From assembly GCA_030431455.1 (NCBI GenBank), contig JAUIJE010000003.1, forward strand, positions 264,360-328,359: a DNA stretch of 64,000 nucleotides. The letters are read 5' to 3'. The notes under the pieces were generated by a model. That model was not told the origin of the DNA. It saw nothing but the letters and a program-made list of their open reading frames with translations, and did no database searches. Position 1 is the stretch's first letter; the number at the start of each line of letters is the position of its first letter. The stretch is from a bacterium. GTDB lineage: Bacteria > Myxococcota > UBA727 > JAUIJE01. The translations under genes were made by a program, and so were the position numbers. Shown here one piece after another: positions 1-19,770 of the stretch.

Positions 1-99
1 GGTGCCGTCCGACACCAGGTAGCAGGTCTGGGCCCCGGCCGCGGGCGCGAACAAGGCGGACACCATCAACACAACATAGGGGACAGACACCAAACGCAT
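1..99 (-). CDS. N-terminal fragment of a probable secreted protein; the gene runs upstream past the window start (partial)
   Basis: Minus-strand ATG at 97-99 is followed by MRLVSVPYVVLMVSALFAPAAGAQT..., a hydrophobic signal-peptide-like start that runs off the window edge. Confidence 0.3.
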   Translation of the reverse strand, partial: MRLVSVPYVVLMVSALFAPAAGAQTCYLVSDGT

Positions 100-234
100 G
101 CTTCCTCCCGGGCGGGCGCGACACCGCGCGCGACGCTGGCACATCAGGCGGCCGATCGCCTGGAAACGACCCTGGCCGCGTCGGGATGTGGTGGCTAGTG
201 TACCGGAACGTCCCCAGGACGACGAGGAGCGCAC

Positions 235-477
235 ATGAAGGTCGACATCGAATACTGCGTGGTTTGAAACTACAAACCACACGCCGCCCGGGTGGCGGCC
301 GACATCGAGCACACCTTTCCCGACGCCGAGGTCACCTTGGTGCCCGGCGGGCGCGGCGTCTTTGACGTGACCTGCGACGGGCGCCTGGTCTTTTGCAAGC
401 GCACCGCGGATCGCTTCCCCCGCGACGGCGAAGTGCCCGCCCTGCTCTCAAAAAATCCTGGTAAATCAGGAACTTAG
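235..477 (+). CDS. SelW/Rdx-family selenoprotein with selenocysteine encoded by in-frame TGA at 265-267
   Basis: Reading from ATG 235 through the TGA gives MKVDIEYCVV-U-NYKPHAARVAADIEHTFPDAEVTLVPGGRGVFDVTCDGRLVFCKRTADRFPRDGEV. The YC-x-x-U-x-YKP motif and the downstream GG..FEV..DG.L.F.K....FP signature match the SelW/Rdx fold, and the track ORF (292..477) is the same frame downstream of the TGA. Confidence 0.7.
283..299 (+). promoter_or_regulatory. Candidate bacterial SECIS hairpin: 6-bp GC stem with a CGGGU loop, 16-18 nt downstream of the UGA
   Basis: GCCGCC-CGGGT-GGCGGC is a perfect inverted repeat immediately 3' of the in-frame TGA, and its apical loop contains G and U as in bacterial SECIS elements. 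Confidence 0.45.
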
Positions 478-539
478 GCCGGCGGTGAGACGGTACTGCC
501 CGGGTTTTCCGTTTCCCGGGCGTCGGGTGTCAAGATCCC

Positions 540-2501
540 ATGATGAACGCCCGCCTGTTGATCGCCGCTCTGTTCCTGTTCACGACCCCCGCCGCCGCGG
601 TGGTGGTCCACCACGTGCCGATGTCGGACGGCACCTCGCTGTACACCCGCGTCTACCTGCCCGGCGACGACGAGGGCACGCCGCGCCCGGTGATCATGGT
701 GCGCACACCCTACGGCGCGGCCGCGGCGGTGGAGGGCAACCTGTTCGACCTGCTGCAGCCGGACCACGCCTGGCTCAACGCCCGGGGCTACGCGGTGGTG
801 GCCCAGGACGTGCGCGGCACCGGCGAGAGCGACGGCGAGGACGTGCTGCGCTTTTTGCACGACGCCGCCGACACCGACGAGACCCTCGCCTGGGTCGCGG
901 CCCAGGACTGGTCCAACGGGCGCGTGGCCCTCTGGGGTCCATCGGCATTGGGCATCAACGCCCTGCTCGCGCTCCAGCGCGCCCCGCCCGAGCTGTCCTG
1001 CGTGCTCGACCTCGTGGCCACCGCGGACGTGCGCGAGGCGTTCTACCCAGGGGGCGCGTTCCGCGAGGAGATGGCCGCGGGGTGGCTGCCCGAACACTCG
1101 TCGGACACCGCCCTGGACATCTTTCGCCAGCAGGAAGTGGACAGCGCGTTCTGGGACGAAGGCCGTCTCAGCGACGACGAAATCGCCGACACCCCGGTCA
1201 AGACCATGACCATCGCCGGGACCTTTGACGTGTTTGGGCCCATGGGGGCCCGGGTGTTCTCCCGGCTCGCGGCCCTGGGGCGCAACCAGACCGACCACAT
1301 GCTCGTGCTCGGGCCGTGGACCCACTCGGGGTATGTGCCCACCCACCAAGCCGACCTCGCGGGGGCGTTCAACGGTGAGCTCAAGTTCCCGGTGAAGTCC
1401 TTCTTCTTTCCCGGGCAGTACCTCGACCCCGCGGGCCAGTTCTCCGCGTTCATGAACTGGTGTCTCAACGACGCGGGCCGCCCCGGCTGGGCCAACGTGC
1501 GCGTGTTCCGTTTCTGGTTGCGCGATGAGCCGGAGTTCATCACCAACCTCACCACCGACGGCGGCTGGCAAGAGTACGAGACCTGGCCCCCGGCCACGGC
1601 CACCGCCACCCCCATGTTTCTGTATGACGACGGGGGGCTCGGCACCGCCCCCGACCCGGGCGGCCTCGGCCGCCAGCTCATCTCTCACCCCGACGACCCC
1701 GTGCCCACGGTGGGCGGGGCCCGGCTCATCGAGGCCGGCGAGGGCAACGGGGCCGGTCCCCGCAACCAGAACATGCTCATCGCCCGCAACGATGTGCTCA
1801 CCTACGTGTCCGCGCCCGCCACCGGCCAGGTCGAGCTCGTGGGCAACCTGCGCGCGGAGGTGTACGCCGCGACCTCGACCAATGACATTGATGTGCACGT
1901 GAAGTTCGCGGTCCAGCGCGGCGAAGGGCCTACCTACCTGCTCGCGGACGGGGTGCGCCGGGGCCGCTTTCTCGACGGTGAGGACGCCATCGTCCCCCTC
2001 GAGCCCGGCCAAGCCCGGCGCTTCGAGGTCGACATCGGTCCAGTGGCATTCTTGCTCCGGGCCGGCCAACGCTTGGTGGTGATGATCCAGGCCACCAACC
2101 ACGACCGGTTCGACATCAACCCGCAACACGCCGCGCCCATCGCCGATGACCCCGTGGCCTACCCCGCCGCGCTCACCGTCTACGGCGACATGGACCGGCC
2201 GAGCGCGATCTACCTGCCGCTGATCAGTGGAGAGCTGCCCGGGGCCGAGGCCCCCGTCGACCACGCCGACGCCGGGCCGGACCCGATGGGCCCGGTGTGG
2301 GACGGCGGCTTCATCCCCGAGGAGCCCGAGCCCAGCCCCGAGCCCAGCCCCGAGCCCGAGCCCCAAGGGGACGGCAACCCCGCCCCCGCCGGGTGCACCT
2401 GCGTGGTCGCGGGGGTGCCCGCGCCCGCGGGGGGCTTGGCGTTGGTGGTGATCGGGGCGCTGGCCCGTCGACGGCGCCGCCCGGTCACACCGTCGCGCTG
2501 A
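540..2501 (+). CDS. CocE/NonD-family (S15 X-Pro dipeptidyl-peptidase-like) hydrolase with a C-terminal Pro/Glu linker and MYXO-CTERM sorting tail
   Basis: 653-aa ORF with an N-terminal signal-like segment and a GTGESDG nucleophile-elbow-like motif in an alpha/beta hydrolase context typical of the CocE/NonD family. The C-terminus EEPEPSPEPSPEPEPQGDGNPAPAGCTCVVAGVPAPAGGLALVVIGALARRRRRP has Cys, a hydrophobic helix and an Arg cluster, which is the MYXO-CTERM pattern. Confidence 0.7.
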   Translation: MMNARLLIAALFLFTTPAAAVVVHHVPMSDGTSLYTRVYLPGDDEGTPRPVIMVRTPYGAAAAVEGNLFDLLQPDHAWLNARGYAVVAQDVRGTGESDGEDVLRFLHDAADTDETLAWVAAQDWSNGRVALWGPSALGINALLALQRAPPELSCVLDLVATADVREAFYPGGAFREEMAAGWLPEHSSDTALDIFRQQEVDSAFWDEGRLSDDEIADTPVKTMTIAGTFDVFGPMGARVFSRLAALGRNQTDHMLVLGPWTHSGYVPTHQADLAGAFNGELKFPVKSFFFPGQYLDPAGQFSAFMNWCLNDAGRPGWANVRVFRFWLRDEPEFITNLTTDGGWQEYETWPPATATATPMFLYDDGGLGTAPDPGGLGRQLISHPDDPVPTVGGARLIEAGEGNGAGPRNQNMLIARNDVLTYVSAPATGQVELVGNLRAEVYAATSTNDIDVHVKFAVQRGEGPTYLLADGVRRGRFLDGEDAIVPLEPGQARRFEVDIGPVAFLLRAGQRLVVMIQATNHDRFDINPQHAAPIADDPVAYPAALTVYGDMDRPSAIYLPLISGELPGAEAPVDHADAGPDPMGPVWDGGFIPEEPEPSPEPSPEPEPQGDGNPAPAGCTCVVAGVPAPAGGLALVVIGALARRRRRPVTPSR

Positions 2502-5541: not shown

Positions 5542-5856
5542 GACTTCTTTCCTTCTTCGTCCTTCGCGGACAGTGGGCGGTGATCTCGCCCGAGTGGGTT
5601 GTTCTTCCACGCGACTTAAGGACGAAAAAGTCCCTTCTTACGCGACCCGGTCCGAAGAGCCGGGCACCCGCGGAAGAACCCAGCAGCAGACTGCGTCTGG
5701 GAAGCGCGTGTGCGATGGGAAAGGGCTGTGATCCCAGGGATCAAAAACCGTTTTCCTCTTCGAAAGCAGTGTTTTCCCTAGCAGGAAGAATTCGATGCGA
5801 CAAGCATTCCCAAAGCCGATCACCGAACCGTTTCATTCCGTCGCAAGCGACTGAAA

Positions 5857-6903
5857 TTGCGGCTGATCAACACCTTGAACCGCACTGTTGCCGAGTGTAC
5901 CCCCCGTCCTGTGAGCGCCTTGCCTCTGCTCGTCCTGTGCACCGGCCTCGCCGCGTCCGCCGCCCCCCAGCCGGGGGCGACCAAGGGCCGGCTCCCGGTG
6001 GCCGCGACATTTGCCGCCGGCACCGAGTCGGTGGTGGTGCAGCTGCACGTCGACCTCCGCGGCGCCGGGCTCACCCCCGCCGAGCAGGTCGCGGTGGCGC
6101 GGACCCTGCGGCACGCTCACCACCGCACCCGCCCGATCTTCCCCACCCCGCCGCGCGCCGAGCTCGCCGACCAACTGCTCAGCCTGCACCTCGAGGCGCC
6201 GCCCGCTGAGCTGCAAAACACGCTCAAGGCCCTCAACGCCCTGCTCGCGTTCCGGCTCCGGCTCGACCCCGCGCCGGCGAGCGTGGCCCTCGACCGCGGC
6301 CCAGCGCTGGAGGGGGCGGTCCCGGCGGACCTGCGCGAGCTGACCGCGCGGGTCCTGACCCAAGACCGGGTGATGGTGTTCGTGCAGGGCCCGCTGCCGG
6401 CCGCGCGCGCCCTGGCCCTCGCCTACCGGGCCTTGCCCACCCGATTGCCCCCCGGCGCGCCCCCCGCCCCGGCCGCGAGCGGCCCCCACGTGCCCCTGGC
6501 CGCGGGGCCGGATCGGGTCCGCACCATCGCCGCGGCCTGGCTCGCCGCGGAGATGCTCGGGGCCCGCGCCCAGCTCGGGCCCGCGCGCATCGACCTCACC
6601 GCGCCCGCCGCCTTCGCCGGCCAAGCCCCGGCCGCGCGGGACACCGTCCTGCTGGCGCGGGCCAAGACCCTGGCCCAAGGACCGCCCGCCCCCGATGCCT
6701 TGTTCGAGACCGTGGCCCGGGCGCAGAACCGCCTGGCCCGGCGGTGGCAAGACCCGGTGGCCCTGGGCCGCGACATCGCCCGGGCGCAATGGCGGGCACA
6801 GGACGTCACGCTGTTCACAGTTGTCGACGACCTCTGGCCGCGGCTGTCCCCCGAGGACGTGCGCCGCGGGGCCGAGCTCATCCAAGCGGGGGCCGCGCCA
6901 TGA
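5857..6903 (+). CDS. Hypothetical secreted protein, possibly an M16 (pitrilysin)-like non-catalytic domain protein
   Basis: 348-aa ORF with a signal-like N-terminus (LPLLVLCTGLAASAAP). No HxxEH motif, but there is a DRVMVFVQGPLPAARALALAYRAL segment resembling the conserved element of inactive M16 domains. Its stop overlaps the next start (ATGA). Confidence 0.4.
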   Translation: MRLINTLNRTVAECTPRPVSALPLLVLCTGLAASAAPQPGATKGRLPVAATFAAGTESVVVQLHVDLRGAGLTPAEQVAVARTLRHAHHRTRPIFPTPPRAELADQLLSLHLEAPPAELQNTLKALNALLAFRLRLDPAPASVALDRGPALEGAVPADLRELTARVLTQDRVMVFVQGPLPAARALALAYRALPTRLPPGAPPAPAASGPHVPLAAGPDRVRTIAAAWLAAEMLGARAQLGPARIDLTAPAAFAGQAPAARDTVLLARAKTLAQGPPAPDALFETVARAQNRLARRWQDPVALGRDIARAQWRAQDVTLFTVVDDLWPRLSPEDVRRGAELIQAGAAP

Positions 6904-7922
6904 TCACGTTGGGCCTCGTGCTCGCCCTCGCCAGCGCGCCCCACGCCCCGCGCGACGACGTGCCCCTCGCGACCTGCGCGGTGGCGGTGCCCCGGGGGGA
7001 CATCCCGGTGGGGGACGTGCTGCTCGCGGCCAGCCTCGCCGCGGTGCCGCGCACGCTGACCCAAAAAGCCTTCGTGCGCCGCGGGGGCCGGCTGTGGACC
7101 GCCCCCCGGCCGGATGGGTTTGTCGTCGTGGCCCAGGCCCACGCCCGGTTCACCGAGGACGCGTGTCAGGCCGCGCTCGACGGGGTCGCGCCCGCGGTGG
7201 ATGCAGCGGCATTGGAGCAGGCCCAGGCCGGCTTCCTGGCCCACAAGCGCGACCCCGGGCTGCGGCACAAGGCCGACGTCGCCCGCCGGGTGTTCGGGCC
7301 GGGGCAAAGCTGGGCCGGTCTGTACGCCGACGACGTGGCCGCCCACCGCGTCTCTGCAGAGACATTGGGCAAGCGGTTGTCCGGCCGCGGCCCCCTCGCG
7401 GTGTTCGTCGAGGGGCCGCGCGACGTGAGCTCCACCGTGCGCCAAGGCCTCGCCCCCCCCGACCCCGGGCCGGTGACCTGGCTGCGGCCCGCGCCCCAGC
7501 CCGCGCCCCCCGAGACGGTGCAGGGGGTGGCCTTGCTGTTGCCCCCCGAGGTCGCCGTCGACCGGGACGCGTTCACGTTGTTGGCCCGGGCGTACGAGGC
7601 CGCGCTCGGCGGGGTGGCCGACATCGAGCGCCACCGGGGGGCGGCGGTGCTCGCCGTCGCCCTGGACGCGCCGCGCCCGCGGGCCGAGGTGCTGACCGCC
7701 CTGGCCGAGACCGAGCGGGGGCTCTTGTCGCGGTCGGTGACCCGGCCGTTGTTCGCGGCCGCGGCGGTGCCGCTCGACCCCGTGTACGTGCCCGGGGACC
7801 AAGCGGTGCGGGCGGCGGCGGTTGCCTTGCGCGGCGGCGACGAGGCGGCCCCGATGCGGGGCGCGGAGCGCCTGCTGTGGACACGGGCGTTGTTGTTCGC
7901 CGAAGCGCTCTATTGGTGGTGA
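6900..7922 (+). CDS. Hypothetical protein, M16-like non-catalytic partner, translationally coupled to the upstream gene
   Basis: The start ATG overlaps the upstream stop (ATGA at 6900-6903). The 340-aa protein has a hydrophobic N-terminus and a GPLAVFVEGPRDV segment analogous to the upstream gene, in the paired arrangement typical of M16 subunit pairs. Confidence 0.4.
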   Translation: MITLGLVLALASAPHAPRDDVPLATCAVAVPRGDIPVGDVLLAASLAAVPRTLTQKAFVRRGGRLWTAPRPDGFVVVAQAHARFTEDACQAALDGVAPAVDAAALEQAQAGFLAHKRDPGLRHKADVARRVFGPGQSWAGLYADDVAAHRVSAETLGKRLSGRGPLAVFVEGPRDVSSTVRQGLAPPDPGPVTWLRPAPQPAPPETVQGVALLLPPEVAVDRDAFTLLARAYEAALGGVADIERHRGAAVLAVALDAPRPRAEVLTALAETERGLLSRSVTRPLFAAAAVPLDPVYVPGDQAVRAAAVALRGGDEAAPMRGAERLLWTRALLFAEALYWW

Positions 7923-8059
7923 CCCCGCCGGTGCACACCAAAGGGTGTGCGCGCCGGCGGCGCGGCGGTGTCGCAACCGTGTGAGACGCGCGGACGGGGC
8001 GCACCGAGAAGCGCGGGCGCGGGCTGGAACGGCGGATGCATTGAGCTGACCCAGGAAGG

Positions 8060-8767
8060 GTGGTTCCGATGCTCAGTCTCATTGTGCACTTGGCGGTGGT
8101 GGTCCCCACCGCGAACGGCGCGGCTTTGCCGCCGGAGCGGCGCGCGACGGTGGAGCGCGACCGCAGGGACAGAACCGACGTCGACGACGAGGACGCGCCT
8201 TGGTTCGACCAGGTGCCCACCGCGGTCTGGGCCGGGAGCCTGACCGCGGGGGTGGCCTTCGGGTTGGGCGCGACCCCCACGGTGGGCCTGGCGGTGGCGG
8301 GCGTGTGCGCGGCGGCCGGGCTTTTGGGCTCGGGCTGGCTCGGGTCGAACAAACAGACCGGCCCCACGCTGATGCTCGGCTTCGCCGGGGTCGGCCTCGT
8401 CGCCGCGCTCGGCCCGTGGGTGGGTTTGATCGCCGCGCTCACCACCGCCACGGTGGTGACCCAAAACCCGTGGGTGCTGGCCGCGACCATGGGCGCGGGG
8501 GGCGCCGCGTTGATCCTGGGCGGCGCCGCCGGCTTGGTCGCGAGCTTGCCCCTGTCGCTGTACGTCGCCGCGTACACCTCGCCGTTCGCGCAACGCGCCC
8601 TCGGCACCGACCCGCTGCTGTGGCTGTGGCCGGTCCTGATCGTGCCCCCGGTGGTGATGATGACCTCGACGCTGGCTGCGGCGATGACCGGGGCGGCGGG
8701 GGCCACCGCGGGGGCCACGGTCAGCACCTTGCTGGCCGTCGACCTCGAGCTCGGGGGGCGCGAATGA
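8060..8767 (+). CDS. Gly/Ala-rich multi-pass membrane protein (glycine-zipper-like), paralog 1 of 3
   Basis: About 235 aa; a charged N-terminal segment (RRATVERDRRDRTDVDDEDAPWF) is followed by repeated GxxxG/AxxxA-rich hydrophobic helices. The start may be the ATG at 8069, and the stop overlaps the next start (ATGA at 8764-8767). Confidence 0.5.
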   Translation: MVPMLSLIVHLAVVVPTANGAALPPERRATVERDRRDRTDVDDEDAPWFDQVPTAVWAGSLTAGVAFGLGATPTVGLAVAGVCAAAGLLGSGWLGSNKQTGPTLMLGFAGVGLVAALGPWVGLIAALTTATVVTQNPWVLAATMGAGGAALILGGAAGLVASLPLSLYVAAYTSPFAQRALGTDPLLWLWPVLIVPPVVMMTSTLAAAMTGAAGATAGATVSTLLAVDLELGGRE

Positions 8768-16418: not shown

Positions 16419-16615
16419 GGCCGGCCCCGGGTGAGGTGAAACGCGAGCAGGGCGAAAAAGCTCGCCCCCACCCACCCCACCGTCCACACCAAAGACACCG
16501 GCAAGCCGAACCACGAAAGCCCCGGCCCCGACGCAAACCAGGCGTGCCCGGCGCCCACCACCGCCAGCCAGCACACCCCACAGAACGCCGCGTAGGCGAC
16601 TTCGCGTTTGCCCAT
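16415..16615 (-). CDS. Small two-helix membrane protein (DUF3311-like) coupled to the symporter
   Basis: 66-aa ORF MGKREVAYAAFCGVCWLAVVGAGHAWFASGPGLSWFGLPVSLVWTVGWVGASFFALLAFHLTRGRP. Its position immediately upstream of and overlapping an SSF transporter is the usual DUF3311 context. Confidence 0.5.
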   Translation of the reverse strand: MGKREVAYAAFCGVCWLAVVGAGHAWFASGPGLSWFGLPVSLVWTVGWVGASFFALLAFHLTRGRP

Positions 16616-16698
16616 CGTCGTCGAGTCTCGCCCCCACCGCGGCCGCGAACAAGCCCAAACCAGCCCCCGCCCGCCGCCCTCTTGCTAGGCTCGACCGC

Positions 16699-17892
16699 AT
16701 GCTGCTCGTGACCCTGCTCCTCGCCGGACAGACCCTCAACCTCGGGGCCGACGCCATGCGCACCGGCCAGGACCGCTACCTCGGGGCCGAGCTCGGGGTG
16801 GAAAGCGGCTCGCCCGTCACCGTGCCCGCGGCCACCCGCACCCACGGCATCGTGCGCCTGCGCTACATCGAACGCGCCCTCATCCCCGGGCCCGGCGGCA
16901 TCGACCTCGACCTCAACACCGACACAGCCACATTGTCGTATTTCCACCCCGGCTTGTTCGGGGAGCGGTCCTGGTCACAGACCTATCTCCGGGCCCAGGG
17001 CTTCGCCGCCAACCTCCTCACCGACCACGCCCGGGCCGGGGTCCAGGTCCCGGGCCGGGGGTTCGGCGCCGGCTACCTCCTCGGGGGCACCCACCTCGGG
17101 GCCACCCTGGTCCGCACCGACCTCGCCCGGGTGTATGTCGCGGGCCAGCTCGAGGCCCGGCAGTGGTTTCACTTCGCCATGCCCACCACCAGCCCCGGCC
17201 TCGTGCTCCCCCCCGCCAACCAGGCGCTGGAGCCCACCCTGTTCGCCACCGTCGACGGCGTCGATTGGCAAACCCCCCTGCGCCGTCCCCACGGGGTCCG
17301 CACCTGGGCCCAGGTGGGCGGCATCGCCCGCCTCGGCGCGCGCAACTGGGGACAGCTGAACGGCAACGACGACAAGCGCAATCACATTGGGCCGTGGGGG
17401 GCCCGGGCGGAGGCGGGCATCCAGGGGGGCGCGGTGGCCCCGCAGTTTGTGTTCGTGCGGCCGGTGGTGGAGGTCGGCCTGCGCGGCGGCCTGAGCCAGG
17501 GGCTCGACGACCGCGATCGCTTTCGGGTCGGGGGCGACAACCCCTGGGTGATCCCCCTCGCGGGGGCGGGGTGGGCAGAGTTCCTCGTCGACGACTACGC
17601 GTGGGGCCAAGCCTGCGCGGGCCTGCTGGTGTTTGATCGGGTGGGGCTCGACCTCGGGGGCGAGGTGGCGATGATCAACGACCCCTACCGGCGGGGAGAC
17701 CTGACCGACGTGCGGACATTCTCGGGCGCGTTTTTCCGGGTGGTGGCCCGCCCCATCGACGCGGTGGTGGTCACGTTGCGGGTGGCCCAAAGCCTGTCGC
17801 TGCCGCGCACCGGCGTCGATCCCTATGGGCTGGCCGGGACCAAGGGCTACCTCAACCTGGAGTGGAGAGCGTTGCCCTGGCCCTGGTGGTGA
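16699..17892 (+). CDS. Hypothetical secreted protein, possibly an outer-membrane beta-barrel
   Basis: 397 aa with a signal-like start (MLLVTLLLAGQTLNLGADA), alternating amphipathic beta-like segments and an aromatic C-terminus (LEWRALPWPWW). Composition is normal, unlike the antisense ORF 16975..20307. Confidence 0.5.
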   Translation: MLLVTLLLAGQTLNLGADAMRTGQDRYLGAELGVESGSPVTVPAATRTHGIVRLRYIERALIPGPGGIDLDLNTDTATLSYFHPGLFGERSWSQTYLRAQGFAANLLTDHARAGVQVPGRGFGAGYLLGGTHLGATLVRTDLARVYVAGQLEARQWFHFAMPTTSPGLVLPPANQALEPTLFATVDGVDWQTPLRRPHGVRTWAQVGGIARLGARNWGQLNGNDDKRNHIGPWGARAEAGIQGGAVAPQFVFVRPVVEVGLRGGLSQGLDDRDRFRVGGDNPWVIPLAGAGWAEFLVDDYAWGQACAGLLVFDRVGLDLGGEVAMINDPYRRGDLTDVRTFSGAFFRVVARPIDAVVVTLRVAQSLSLPRTGVDPYGLAGTKGYLNLEWRALPWPWW

Positions 17893-17946
17893 CCGGCGGC
17901 GAACGCCCGGTGTTGGCGGGCCGCGCCTGCGCTGGTACGACAACGT

Positions 17947-19770
17947 GTGGCGGTCAAACTGCAACACGTCGACGCGCAGTTCGCGCGGTTGGTCCGGGAG
18001 CGGGTGAAGGCCGCGGCCGGTGAGGACGGCCGGCTCGAGGGGACCGAAGCACGAACACTCGAGGGCGACATCCAAGCGGTGGCCGCCGAGCTGTCGACCG
18101 CGGGCGGCGAGGTCTCCGTCGACGACGTGGTGCAAGGGGTGCTCGACCGCGCCCGCCAGGCCTGGGAGAAGGTCAACGACCGGGGCGCGGCGTTTTTGGC
18201 CCAGCGCGAGATCGGCCAGCTGCCGAAGTTTGGCGGCCTGCACGCGTTGACCCTGCACGCGTACCGGGCGGCCCAAGAGAGCGTGTTTGTCCTCGACAAA
18301 GACCCGGTGTTCCAAAAATACATGTCCGCCGAGCGCTACACCCTCCGGGTCAAAGGCAGCGACGGCAAGGCGAAGGCGCGCGAGGTCCTGTCCATCGACG
18401 GGCCGGGACAGGGCCCCATGCGCGGTGACGTGGCGGTGTTCGCCGCCATCGCGCTCGCCCCCGACGGCCGGCCGCTGTCGGTGCTCAAAGCCGGCGACAC
18501 CCGGGCCGGCCGCGTGGCCCGCGGCGACGACTACGTGAAGGTCGGGTTCATCGCCGGGCGCATGGACAAGGCGGACAAGAGCCCGCTCGAGATCGCGATG
18601 GAAGAGGTCACCGAGGAGGTCGGGGGCACGGTGCTCAGCTGGGGCAAGCTCGGGGACACCCCGGTGCCGACCATGCCTGGCCGGGTGCCCGACGACGACG
18701 ACGGCGCGATGAGCGTGGGCTCGCGGGAGCGCGACCATGTGTTCGGCGCGGTGATCACCGTCGACCCCGACTACGTTCCCCGGGGGGACGGCGGCGGCCA
18801 TGAGGTGGCCGGTCTCATCCAGGCCCACATCAACACCGCGGAAGAGGCGATCGAAGAGATGGCCGCGGGCAAGATGTCCGACGGGGCCCGGGCCTGGAAC
18901 GCCCTGCGCCGCCAACTCGACAAGAGCGGCTACATCCCCGAATTGAGCATGTACGTCCAGGACATGCCCCCGGCCGTGCAGCAACATTTCGATACGCGGG
19001 GGCTCGGCCCCGCCCAGGACCCCCGGGCCCTGTTGGCGAACGCGCCCGCCCCCAAAAAGACCCCGCCCCCGTCCGCCCCCGCGGTGGTCGAGGCGGGCGC
19101 GGCGGAGATCGACGGGGTGCGGGCCGTATCCAGTTCCATTGTCGAGGTGGGGGCCGGGGCCCAAGTGGTCGACGGCACCTTCGAACACCTCGCGGGCCAC
19201 GGCCCCGCGGCCCGGCCGGTGGGCAAGCCCTACCCGTCCCAAGCGCTGGCGGTGCCCTTCGACGCGGCCAAGACCGTGGTGTTCTATCTCGACGCCGCGC
19301 GCGGGCCGATGGTGCGCTTCACCGACGCGGAGCGCGGCAACATGGGGGTGAAGGTGGCCGAGGACGGGGCCGCCGACGCGGCCTACCGCGCCAAAGACGT
19401 GAGCGAGTTCCGGGTGCCGGTGGGCGATGCCCAAGGCGAGGCCGCGCTCTCGGCCCAGGCCCGCCGGGCGGTGACCGCGGGGCTCGACGCCGTGGGCTGG
19501 TCCGGGGCGGCGGTCAAGACCCTGGGGGCGTCCACCGACGCGTCCGCGGGACAGACCGACATGCGGTTTCATTTTTTCAGCGCCGAAGTCGCGCCCCCGC
19601 CGGGGGGCGAGGGGTTTGTCCCGCTGACCGACGCGTTGACCCAGATTCGGGCCGCGGGCCAAGGGGACGCGGGGGCCGAAAATGCGCTCCTCCGGCTCGC
19701 CCGGGACCTCGGCTATGTGCCCACCCTGGGCATGTTTGTCGACGACGTGACCGCGCTGCTCACGCCCTGA
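17947..19770 (+). CDS. Hypothetical protein (607 aa), weak Nudix-like segment
   Basis: Non-repetitive ORF with normal codon composition. The central segment GFIAGRMDKADKSPLEIAMEEVTEEVGG loosely resembles a degenerate Nudix box; no confident family assignment. Confidence 0.5.
   Translation: MAVKLQHVDAQFARLVRERVKAAAGEDGRLEGTEARTLEGDIQAVAAELSTAGGEVSVDDVVQGVLDRARQAWEKVNDRGAAFLAQREIGQLPKFGGLHALTLHAYRAAQESVFVLDKDPVFQKYMSAERYTLRVKGSDGKAKAREVLSIDGPGQGPMRGDVAVFAAIALAPDGRPLSVLKAGDTRAGRVARGDDYVKVGFIAGRMDKADKSPLEIAMEEVTEEVGGTVLSWGKLGDTPVPTMPGRVPDDDDGAMSVGSRERDHVFGAVITVDPDYVPRGDGGGHEVAGLIQAHINTAEEAIEEMAAGKMSDGARAWNALRRQLDKSGYIPELSMYVQDMPPAVQQHFDTRGLGPAQDPRALLANAPAPKKTPPPSAPAVVEAGAAEIDGVRAVSSSIVEVGAGAQVVDGTFEHLAGHGPAARPVGKPYPSQALAVPFDAAKTVVFYLDAARGPMVRFTDAERGNMGVKVAEDGAADAAYRAKDVSEFRVPVGDAQGEAALSAQARRAVTAGLDAVGWSGAAVKTLGASTDASAGQTDMRFHFFSAEVAPPPGGEGFVPLTDALTQIRAAGQGDAGAENALLRLARDLGYVPTLGMFVDDVTALLTP

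What the first reader, a model, noticed from the sequence alone, without database searches (positions are those of the whole stretch)
235..300. SelW/Rdx-family selenoprotein gene with in-frame TGA and a downstream SECIS-like hairpin
ATG at 235 opens a frame that reads MKVDIEYCVV, then TGA at 265-267, then NYKPHAARV..., joining the annotated ORF 292-477 in the same frame. The C-x-x-U motif inside Y-C-x-x-U-x-Y-K-P and the downstream GG..F.V..DG.L.F.K....FP signature are the hallmarks of SelW-like thioredoxin-fold selenoproteins. A perfect GC hairpin (GCCGCC-CGGGU-GGCGGC, 283-299) sits at the spacing where bacterial SECIS elements act. Standard gene callers would truncate this gene to the 61-aa downstream ORF or miss it.
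Basis: partly seen in the sequence, partly recalled or inferred. Interest (0 to 1): 0.7.

Follow-up and report, generated by a model that had tools for sequence, protein, structure and literature searches.

The report
Uncalled SelW-like selenoprotein gene with SECIS
This is an ordinary but unannotated member of the well-known bacterial SelW-like (Rdx) selenoprotein family: an 80-codon gene whose in-frame TGA most likely encodes selenocysteine, followed by the hairpin this family uses to recode that stop codon.

Summary
ATG 235 opens one frame through TGA 265-267 to TAG 475-477. A GAGGAG ribosome-binding site lies 5 nt upstream of the ATG.

With Sec written as Cys, the 80-aa product scores 72.4 bits on Pfam Rdx, against 42.0 for the 61-aa ORF. 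It scores 95.9 bits on NCBIfam NF041051, "SelT/SelW/SelH family (seleno)protein" (cut-off 88).

Homologs carry TGA or Cys at the same codon. In a metagenome scan that allowed TGA, TGC or TGT there, all 120 matches I read had TGA.

The hairpin at 283-299 is not significant on its own in 70% GC DNA. It does sit in the same register as a family-wide hairpin. That hairpin covaries (0 of 500 shuffles reach it), exceeds synonymous-codon resampling by about 16 sd, and is mostly lost in Cys forms (Fisher p = 2e-5).

Identical DNA occurs in two independent read sets, where no gene was called.

One point is unverified. No selA, selB, selD or tRNA-Sec lies in the 64-kb window, and I could not reach the rest of the genome.

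Neighbouring genes carry Myxococcota markers. This is a new member of a known kind, of low interest.

The parts
100..234 (.). Divergent intergenic region between a minus-strand gene (start codon at window 97-99) and the SelW-like gene. It presumably holds both promoters.
   Evidence: Gene calls on L004/L005 place the neighbour's start at window 99. No sigma-70 consensus match was found, so the promoter is inferred, not shown.
224..229 (+). Shine-Dalgarno-like GAGGAG, 5 nt upstream of ATG 235.
   Evidence: Read directly from the sequence. No comparable motif precedes GTG 292.
235..477 (+). SelW-like / Rdx-family selenoprotein coding sequence: 80 codons plus TAG, with codon 11 = TGA read as Sec.
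   Evidence: Pfam Rdx 72.4 bits, NF041051 95.9 bits, TIGR02174 58.1 bits. Sequence homology to solved Rdx structures 2fa8, 2ljk, 2obk and 2npb.
256..267 (+). Redox motif Cys8-Val-Val-Sec11 (TGC GTG GTT TGA).
   Evidence: The same column holds TGA or Cys in homologs.
265..267 (+). In-frame TGA, the proposed selenocysteine codon.
   Evidence: The sequence is identical in two independent Logan read sets, with 0 mismatches over 5273 and 4317 bases.
283..299 (+). Proposed bacterial SECIS hairpin: 6 G-C pairs (283-288 with 294-299) and loop CGGGU (289-293). There are 15 nt between the TGA and the stem, and 21 nt between the TGA and the loop.
   Evidence: It is the MFE structure. It is in the same register as the family hairpin, which RNAalifold predicts independently. 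That family hairpin shows covariation, an excess over synonymous recoding, and depletion in Cys forms.
292..477 (+). The 61-aa GTG ORF that a standard ORF finder reports. It is a truncated view of the same gene, not a separate part.
   Evidence: It matches only positions 19-70 of the Rdx profile, at 42 bits.

Best explanation
Window 235-477 (+) encodes an 80-residue SelW-like (Rdx family) thiol/selenol oxidoreductase whose 11th codon, TGA 265-267, is translated as selenocysteine. This gives the active site Cys8-x-x-Sec11 at the start of helix 1 of a thioredoxin-like fold.

Proposed recoding mechanism (inferred by analogy with the established bacterial SelB mechanism): the mRNA hairpin at 283-299, which is itself coding sequence for Ala-Ala-Arg-Val-Ala-Ala, is bound through its small G-containing apical loop by the elongation factor SelB carrying Sec-tRNA(Sec). 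SelB delivers the tRNA when the ribosome reaches the UGA 15 nt upstream of the stem.

Proposed protein function (inferred from the family; the substrate is unknown): a redox cycle through a Cys8-Sec11 selenenylsulfide.

What is shown here: the reading frame, family membership, the Sec/Cys pair at the homologous codon, and the family-wide conservation of the hairpin in this register with selection at the RNA level. What is inferred: actual Sec insertion in this organism, SelB binding, and the redox role.
For: 1. One frame runs ATG 235 ... TGA 265 ... TAG 475, with GAGGAG 5 nt before the ATG.
2. Pfam Rdx scores 72.4 bits for the full read-through product and 42.0 bits for the 61-aa ORF. NF041051 'SelT/SelW/SelH family (seleno)protein' scores 95.9 bits (cut-off 88). 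TIGR02174 CXXU_selWTH scores 58.1 bits (cut-off 34.2).
3. PDB sequence hits are all Rdx/SelW proteins covering residues 2-67.
4. The same codon is TGA in L001 and L003 and TGC in L002. All 120 metagenome matches I read for a pattern allowing TGA, TGC or TGT carry TGA and continue into an Rdx-like ORF.
5. A search with only the part downstream of the TGA returns full-length homologs that carry YCxx[C/W] upstream. The W stands for TGA in the one case I checked (L130).
6. Hairpin across 116 Sec forms: 87.2% of cells are paired, against 70.6% in shuffles. There are 108 double-sided changes against 30.6 expected. The covariation score is 0.49 against 0.19 (0 of 500 shuffles reach it) and 0.06-0.15 for slid registers.
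7. RNAalifold finds the same helix.
8. Observed paired cells number 607, against 461.8 +/- 9.1 under synonymous-codon resampling.
9. At least 5 of 6 pairs form in 105 of 116 Sec forms but in only 1 of 7 Cys forms (Fisher p = 1.9e-5).
10. The window's loop CGGGU is shared with L096, L109 and L130. L130 has compensatory stem changes relative to the window.
11. The TGA is not a sequencing error, because two Logan read sets are identical to the window.
12. TGA is an ordinary stop codon here, for example at the ends of EF-Ts and the CocE/NonD hydrolase. TGA=Trp and TGA=Gly genetic codes are therefore excluded.
13. SelW-like proteins are an established, very abundant CxxU bacterial selenoprotein family in which Sec forms outnumber Cys forms (PMC1088965, PMC2398784, PMC1794560).
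Against: - No tRNA of any kind, no Rfam family, and no selA, selB or selD homolog lies in the 64-kb window. I could not reach the rest of the genome, so Sec decoding in this organism is unproven.
- No second selenoprotein candidate was found in the window.
- Taken alone, the hairpin is no more stable than expected for this peptide and GC content.
- The gene's GC3 (0.76) is below that of neighbouring genes (0.86-0.92), so recent horizontal acquisition is possible.
- The loop has G where the family consensus has U at loop position 3.
Confidence: 0.87

Rival explanations
1. The gene is a pseudogene or fossil. It was inherited or horizontally acquired as a SelW-like selenoprotein gene, but now sits in a genome that has lost, or never had, the Sec-decoding machinery. 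Translation then stops at TGA 265 after 10 residues and no functional Rdx protein is made.
For: The Sec machinery was not found in the window and the rest of the genome could not be tested. The gene's GC3 of 0.76 is lower than that of its neighbours. The odd AT-rich C-terminal tail is absent from homologs. Selenoprotein loss is frequent in bacteria (PMC1794560).
Against: The gene shows no decay. The start codon, ribosome-binding site, every nearly invariant family residue (Y7, C8, Y13, P15, A17, G41, F43, K55, F61, P62) and a perfect 6-bp hairpin in the family register are all intact. There is no frameshift and no second stop. Sec decoding is known within Myxococcota, in Anaeromyxobacter.
Confidence: 0.08
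2. The real gene is only the 61-aa ORF from GTG 292 (or a short leader peptide plus that ORF). On this view the upstream match and the hairpin are coincidental, and the TGA is a true stop.
For: A mechanical ORF finder lists 292-477. The 61-aa product alone still passes the Pfam Rdx cut-off at 42 bits.
Against: The 61-aa product lacks strand 1 and the C-x-x-U/C redox motif that defines the family, matching only profile positions 19-70. GTG 292 has no ribosome-binding site and lies inside the hairpin. Adding the upstream 19 residues raises the score by 30 bits. Homologs found through the downstream part alone carry the same upstream motif. Truncated 45-60-aa database entries are the expected gene-caller artefact for TGA forms.
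Confidence: 0.03
3. The TGA is decoded, but not as Sec. Candidates are near-cognate read-through (Trp or Cys) or an alternative genetic code, with the hairpin acting only as a generic read-through stimulator. Alternatively, the hairpin is a minus-strand terminator.
For: Database homologs appear with W or G at this position. The consensus scan flags 299-283 as terminator-like on the minus strand.
Against: TGA ends bona fide genes in this window, so the code is standard. The W in the one database homolog I checked is a TGA in the DNA. The family is curated as a selenoprotein family with Sec/Cys pairs (PMC2398784). No minus-strand gene ends at 299-283, the site lies inside a plus-strand coding region, and the terminator count is not above shuffles in any meaningful way (2 found against 0.5 +/- 0.8).
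Confidence: 0.02

Closest known systems
Bacterial SelW-like selenoproteins (CxxU; Pfam Rdx PF10262, formerly pfam05169; TIGR02174 CXXU_selWTH; NCBIfam NF041051 SelTWH_Campy), described by Kryukov, Zhang and Gladyshev
   Same: Length of about 70-80 aa. N-terminal (I/V)-x-Y-C-x-x-U-x-Y-x-P motif. The GG-x-F-(D/E)-V ... DG-x-L-(I/V)-(F/Y)-S-K ... RFP signature. A TGA aligned with Cys in a minority of homologs. A 5-6-bp hairpin starting 15 nt after the UGA, with a small G-containing loop (PMC1088965, PMC2398784).
   Different: Only details differ. The host is a roughly 70% GC, probably myxobacterial, genome. Cys replaces the usual Ser in F-S-K (C54), and there is an extra Cys47. A 9-residue AT-rich C-terminal tail is absent from homologs. 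The loop is CGGGU (3 of 116 sequences) rather than the common AGUUU, GGUCU or CGUGY.
E. coli fdhF/fdnG-type bacterial SECIS recognised by SelB
   Same: The hairpin lies within the coding sequence immediately 3' of the UGA, with a small apical loop containing G. The proposed mechanism is the same. That mechanism comes from established knowledge and was not tested here.
   Different: There is no sequence similarity. The spacer from the UGA to the stem is 15 nt, against 11 nt for the minimal fdhF element (from my own knowledge). The window's stem has no bulged U. SelB binding is untested.
Mammalian selenoprotein W (PDB 2NPB) and other eukaryotic Rdx proteins (SelT, SelH, MIEN1/C17orf37, PDB 2LJK)
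   Same: Homologous thioredoxin-like Rdx domain with CxxU or CxxC at the same position (2ljk E = 3.7e-7, 2npb E = 1.4e-4).
   Different: Eukaryotic members use a kink-turn SECIS in the 3' UTR together with SBP2 and eEFSec. Sequence identity is low.
Cys-containing bacterial Rdx proteins (Atu0228, PDB 2FA8; SAV_2001, PDB 3DEX; L002, L129, L131-L135)
   Same: Same domain and same CxxC position. Atu0228 is the best PDB sequence hit (E = 1.4e-7).
   Different: They carry TGC or TGT instead of TGA. They mostly lack the hairpin in the family register, with a mean of 3.7 of 6 pairs against 5.2 of 6 in Sec forms.

Membership tests
Rdx / SelT-SelW-SelH family (PF10262, TIGR02174, NF041051) | Profile match above the curated cut-off over the whole domain | tested here: met
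   PF10262 scores 72.4 bits (cut-off 22.6) over profile positions 1-70 of 74. TIGR02174 scores 58.1 bits (cut-off 34.2). NF041051 scores 95.9 bits (cut-off 88). In the query, Sec was written as Cys.
Rdx / SelT-SelW-SelH family | CxxC or CxxU redox motif directly after the first beta-strand | tested here: met
   The motif is Cys8-Val-Val-[TGA]11. It aligns with CxxC in Atu0228 and MIEN1 and with CxxC, or CxxW where W stands for TGA, in database homologs.
Rdx / SelT-SelW-SelH family | Thioredoxin-like beta-alpha-beta-beta-beta-alpha fold | not tested
   The fold is inferred only from sequence homology to solved Rdx structures 2fa8, 2ljk, 2oka, 3dex, 2obk and 2npb.
Bacterial selenoprotein gene | In-frame UGA at a position occupied by Cys in homologs, with conservation on both sides | tested here: met
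   TGA in L001, L003, L130 and 120 metagenome loci. Cys in L002, L129 and L131-L135. Conservation upstream and downstream is shown.
Bacterial selenoprotein gene | SECIS: a stem-loop just 3' of the UGA with a small apical loop containing G | tested here: met
   A 6-bp stem at 283-299 with the 5-nt loop CGGGU, 21 nt from the UGA to the loop. The register matches the covarying family hairpin, which is depleted in Cys forms. [quoted passage not shown] The hairpin alone is not statistically unusual.
Bacterial selenoprotein gene | Sec-decoding machinery (selA, selB, selC/tRNA-Sec, selD) present in the same genome | not testable with these tools
   All are absent from the 64-kb window: 0 tRNAs, no Rfam hit, and tblastn with E. 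coli SelA, SelB and SelD gives nothing below E = 0.4.
Bacterial selenoprotein gene | Selenium actually incorporated into the product | not testable with these tools
   This needs 75Se labelling or mass spectrometry.

The most novel reading that the evidence does not exclude
The most novel reading that the evidence does not exclude is this: the source myxobacterium lacks a canonical selA/selB/selC/selD set, yet keeps an intact SelW-like gene with its UGA and hairpin. That would mean either a non-canonical route of UGA recoding at this hairpin, or a very recent transfer of the gene caught before decay. A milder version is that this SelW-like gene is the only selenoprotein sustaining the whole Sec trait in an aerobic, high-GC myxobacterium.
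Probability: 0.06. Interest if true: 0.5.

Novelty: new member of a known kind. Interest (0 to 1): 0.18.

Why it matters
The main consequence is for annotation. Gene callers skipped this gene in two assemblies of this organism. The protein databases are also full of artefacts from the same family. Of the 150 best homolog clusters, 108 lack the N-terminal motif, consistent with truncated calls, and 25 carry Trp at the Sec position, from TGA read as Trp in the one case I checked against DNA.

If the call is correct, it marks this probable myxobacterium as a selenocysteine user. It also adds one more instance to the most abundant prokaryotic selenoprotein family, whose biochemical substrate is still unknown. 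It does not open a new question.

The family-level result is a clean demonstration of a coding-sequence SECIS, but it is consistent with published bacterial SECIS models. That result is a covarying hairpin in a fixed register that is under RNA-level selection and is lost in Cys forms.

Tried and rejected
- The word-indexed protein search with the full-length product (Sec written as Cys) found nothing.
I replaced them with a degenerate DNA pattern.
- The Rfam scan of the whole window gave no hit. ARAGORN found no tRNA.
- tblastn of E. coli SelA, SelB and SelD against the window and L001-L005 gave nothing below E = 0.4.
- A scan for other in-frame TGAs flanked by coding-like GC3 found only 17890 (+) and 43384 (-). 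Both look like gene ends followed by another gene in the same frame, so I rejected them as selenoprotein candidates without further tests.
- I tried to reach the 736,849-bp NCBI source contig through exact-protein look-ups, but only 6-kb Logan contigs came back.
- The small hairpin GUUUG/CAAAC around the UGA (262-277) is not conserved in homologs, so I dropped it.
- The minus-strand 'terminator' call on 299-283 was rejected, because the site lies inside a plus-strand coding region and no minus-strand gene ends there.

Full report
**1. Observation**

Reading window 1-900 and translating 235-480 confirms the finding base for base. ATG 235-237 opens MKVDIEYCVV. TGA lies at 265-267. The same frame continues NYKPHAARVAADIEHTFPDAEVTLVPGGRGVFDVTCDGRLVFCKRTADRFPRDGEVPALLSKNPGKSGT to TAG 475-477.

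The mechanical ORF list shows only the GTG-started 61-aa ORF 292-477, which is in the same frame. A Shine-Dalgarno-like GAGGAG (224-229) lies 5 nt before ATG 235. Nothing comparable precedes GTG 292, which sits inside the hairpin. The hairpin GCCGCC-CGGGU-GGCGGC at 283-299 is real and is the MFE structure of 262-330.

**2. The protein**

With the TGA written as Cys, the 80-aa product matches three curated models.
- Pfam Rdx (PF10262): 72.4 bits, E = 3.5e-20, profile positions 1-70 of 74.
- TIGR02174 "CXXU_selWTH": 58.1 bits.
- NCBIfam equivalog NF041051 "SelT/SelW/SelH family (seleno)protein": 95.9 bits, cut-off 88.

The 61-aa ORF alone reaches 42.0 bits and covers only profile positions 19-70. 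The 19 residues that a gene caller drops therefore add 30 bits, and they contain the defining C-x-x-U motif.

Against PDB sequences the product hits only Rdx/SelW proteins over residues 2-67. These are Atu0228 (2fa8, E = 1.4e-7), MIEN1/C17orf37 (2ljk), 2oka, 3dex, 2obk and mouse SelW (2npb).

**3. Sec/Cys pair at the homologous codon**

A genome scan found three relatives.
- L001, a Thermodesulfobacteriota MAG, reads MNILIEYCAV-TGA-NYLPQ.
- L003, an Acetobacteraceae MAG, reads MKVDIEYCGR-TGA-GYEPR.
- L002, an Alphaproteobacteria MAG, reads MKVDIEYCVP-TGC-GYLPR.

I then scanned metagenome contigs with a pattern that allowed TGA, TGC or TGT at that codon (ATHGARTAYTGYNNNNNNTGHRRYTAYNNNCC). All 120 matches I read carry TGA, and they continue into an Rdx-like ORF.

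The upstream motif in that set is forced by the pattern, so I checked it another way. An exhaustive HMMER search with only the 69 residues after the TGA returned 233 clusters. I classified the best 150.
- 12 have Y-C-x-x-C.
- 25 have Y-C-x-x-W.
- 1 has G at the Sec position.
- 108 lack the N-terminal motif; many start a few residues after the Sec position, as truncated calls would.
- 4 are long multidomain proteins.

For P0017, the W form most similar to the window at its N-terminus, the DNA (L130) has TGA at the W codon. That database W is therefore a TGA translated with a TGA=Trp code.

This matches the literature. SelW-like is a CxxU family and the most abundant prokaryotic selenoprotein family in the Sargasso Sea and GOS data (427 Sec forms against 56 Cys forms in GOS). 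Sec is thought to be its original state (PMC1088965, PMC2398784, PMC1794560).

**4. The hairpin**

Taken alone, the window's hairpin is not evidence. Its fold z-score against dinucleotide shuffles is -0.51. I recoded the same peptide with this window's codon usage. In 25% of recodings all six pairs still form, and in 39% the fold is at least as stable.

The family comparison changes the picture. The 54 nt starting at the UGA align without gaps in 116 distinct Sec forms. A hairpin occupies the same columns as in the window (19-24 with 30-35) in nearly all of them, and its stem letters vary. Examples are GCCGCC/GGCGGC, GCCGUC/GACGGC, CCCUC/GAGGG, CUUCC/GGAAG and UUUGAC/GUCAAA.

Pair counting on that structure gives:

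| Measure | Observed | Shuffles |
|---|---|---|
| Cells paired | 87.2% | 70.6% |
| Cells changed on both sides | 108 | 30.6 |
| Covariation score | 0.49 | 0.19 |

None of 500 shuffles reaches the observed values. Registers slid by 1 to 3 columns score only 0.06-0.15.

Three further tests agree.
- RNAalifold independently predicts the same helix.
- Because this is coding sequence, I resampled synonymous codons within GC3-matched pools. That gives 461.8 +/- 9.1 paired cells, against 607 observed, about 16 sd. The pairing is therefore selected at the RNA level and not only through the peptide A-x-x-L-A-A.
- I fetched DNA for six Cys forms (L129, L131-L135) and added L002. The seven Cys forms average 3.7 of 6 pairs, which is about the resampling null, while Sec forms average 5.2. 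At least 5 pairs form in 1 of 7 Cys forms and in 105 of 116 Sec forms (Fisher p = 1.9e-5).

The loop has G at position 2 in 102 of 116 sequences. The window's loop CGGGU also occurs in L096, L109 and L130, and L130 differs from the window by compensatory stem changes.

[quoted passage not shown] From my own knowledge, the spacing of 21 nt from UGA to loop lies within the 16-37 nt range of the Zhang and Gladyshev bacterial SECIS model.

**5. Not an error, not another code**

Two Logan assemblies from separate runs (ERR3420974, ERR3428548) are identical to the window over 5273 and 4317 bases, including the TGA. No gene was called between the flanking genes in either assembly.

TGA terminates bona fide genes here, including EF-Ts and the CocE/NonD hydrolase. 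The organism therefore uses the standard code.

**6. Context and organism**

The gene sits between two neighbours.
- Upstream is a divergently transcribed gene with a local match to the gliding-motility lipoprotein CglD.
- Downstream, on the same strand at 540-2501, is a CocE/NonD-family hydrolase that ends in a MYXO-CTERM sorting domain (TIGR03901, 22.2 bits against a cut-off of 20).

Further on are an AstE/AspA-like gene, tsf and rpsB. Sec decoding is documented in that lineage, in Anaeromyxobacter. Nothing links the neighbours functionally to the selenoprotein.

**7. What is missing**

The window holds no tRNA, no Rfam family and no SelA, SelB or SelD homolog. A GC3-based screen found no other convincing in-frame-TGA gene.

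The source is a 736,849-bp NCBI contig that I could not retrieve. The refutation test "no Sec machinery in the genome" therefore remains open.

The gene's GC3 (0.76) is somewhat below that of its neighbours (0.86-0.92), and its last 10 codons are AT-rich. A recently acquired, not yet decayed fossil cannot be excluded. I give that reading about 8%.

Against decay, the gene has an intact start codon, ribosome-binding site and hairpin, and it keeps every nearly invariant family residue.

**8. Verdict**

This is a typical, previously uncalled member of the known bacterial SelW-like selenoprotein family, with that family's SECIS hairpin. The mechanism (SelB-dependent recoding, and a Cys-Sec redox centre with an unknown substrate) is inferred from the family and was not tested here.

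Novelty: new member of a known kind. Interest: low, mainly as an annotation correction and as a marker of selenium use in this organism.

Noticed in passing
window 445-477: The last 10 or so codons of the gene (SKNPGKSGT*) are AT-rich in a 70% GC window. They contain a hairpin TCCTG-GTAAAT-CAGGA (456-471), preceded on the plus strand by the A-rich stretch AAAAAA (450-455). The consensus scan flags the hairpin as terminator-like on the minus strand. Homologs end before this tail.
   Followed up: no
window 540-2501 (+), product residues 617-647: The adjacent CocE/NonD-family hydrolase ends in a PEPS-repeat linker and a MYXO-CTERM sorting domain (TIGR03901, 22.2 bits against a cut-off of 20). The divergent upstream gene (L005 1-1620, minus strand) has a local match to the gliding lipoprotein CglD. 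Both point to Myxococcota.
   Followed up: partly
database proteins P0006, P0017, P0022 and others; L130 196-429: Of the 150 best homolog clusters, 25 carry Trp and 1 carries Gly at the Sec position, and 108 lack the N-terminal motif, consistent with truncated calls. DNA for P0017 (L130) shows TGA at the W codon, so that W is a TGA translated with a TGA=Trp code.
   Followed up: partly
L002 10001-10219: This Cys form (TGC), from an Alphaproteobacteria MAG, still keeps 5 of 6 pairs of the SECIS-register hairpin (GCCCUC...GAAGGC). TGA-containing relatives such as L034 and L056 have the same stem. It looks like a recent Sec-to-Cys replacement with a fossil SECIS.
   Followed up: partly
L003, L017, L048, L062, L088, L098 (alignment A3): In a sub-family with U-G-Y-E-P-R-A after the Sec codon, the hairpin is shifted a few bases 5' (CCGCGCGCC...GGCGCGG). 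This accounts for most of the unpaired cells in the fixed-register count.
   Followed up: no
window 17890 (+) and 43384 (-): These are the only other in-frame TGAs flanked on both sides by coding-like GC3. Both look like a gene end followed by another ORF in the same frame, not Sec sites. The ORFs 16435-17892 and 17893-19770 have no Pfam or NCBIfam match.
   Followed up: partly
window 5782-8072: Overlapping long ORFs with high GC3 on both strands (5782-6903 +, 5833-6903 -, 6423-8072 -) leave the coding strand ambiguous. The 6423-8069 (-) product has no family match.
   Followed up: no
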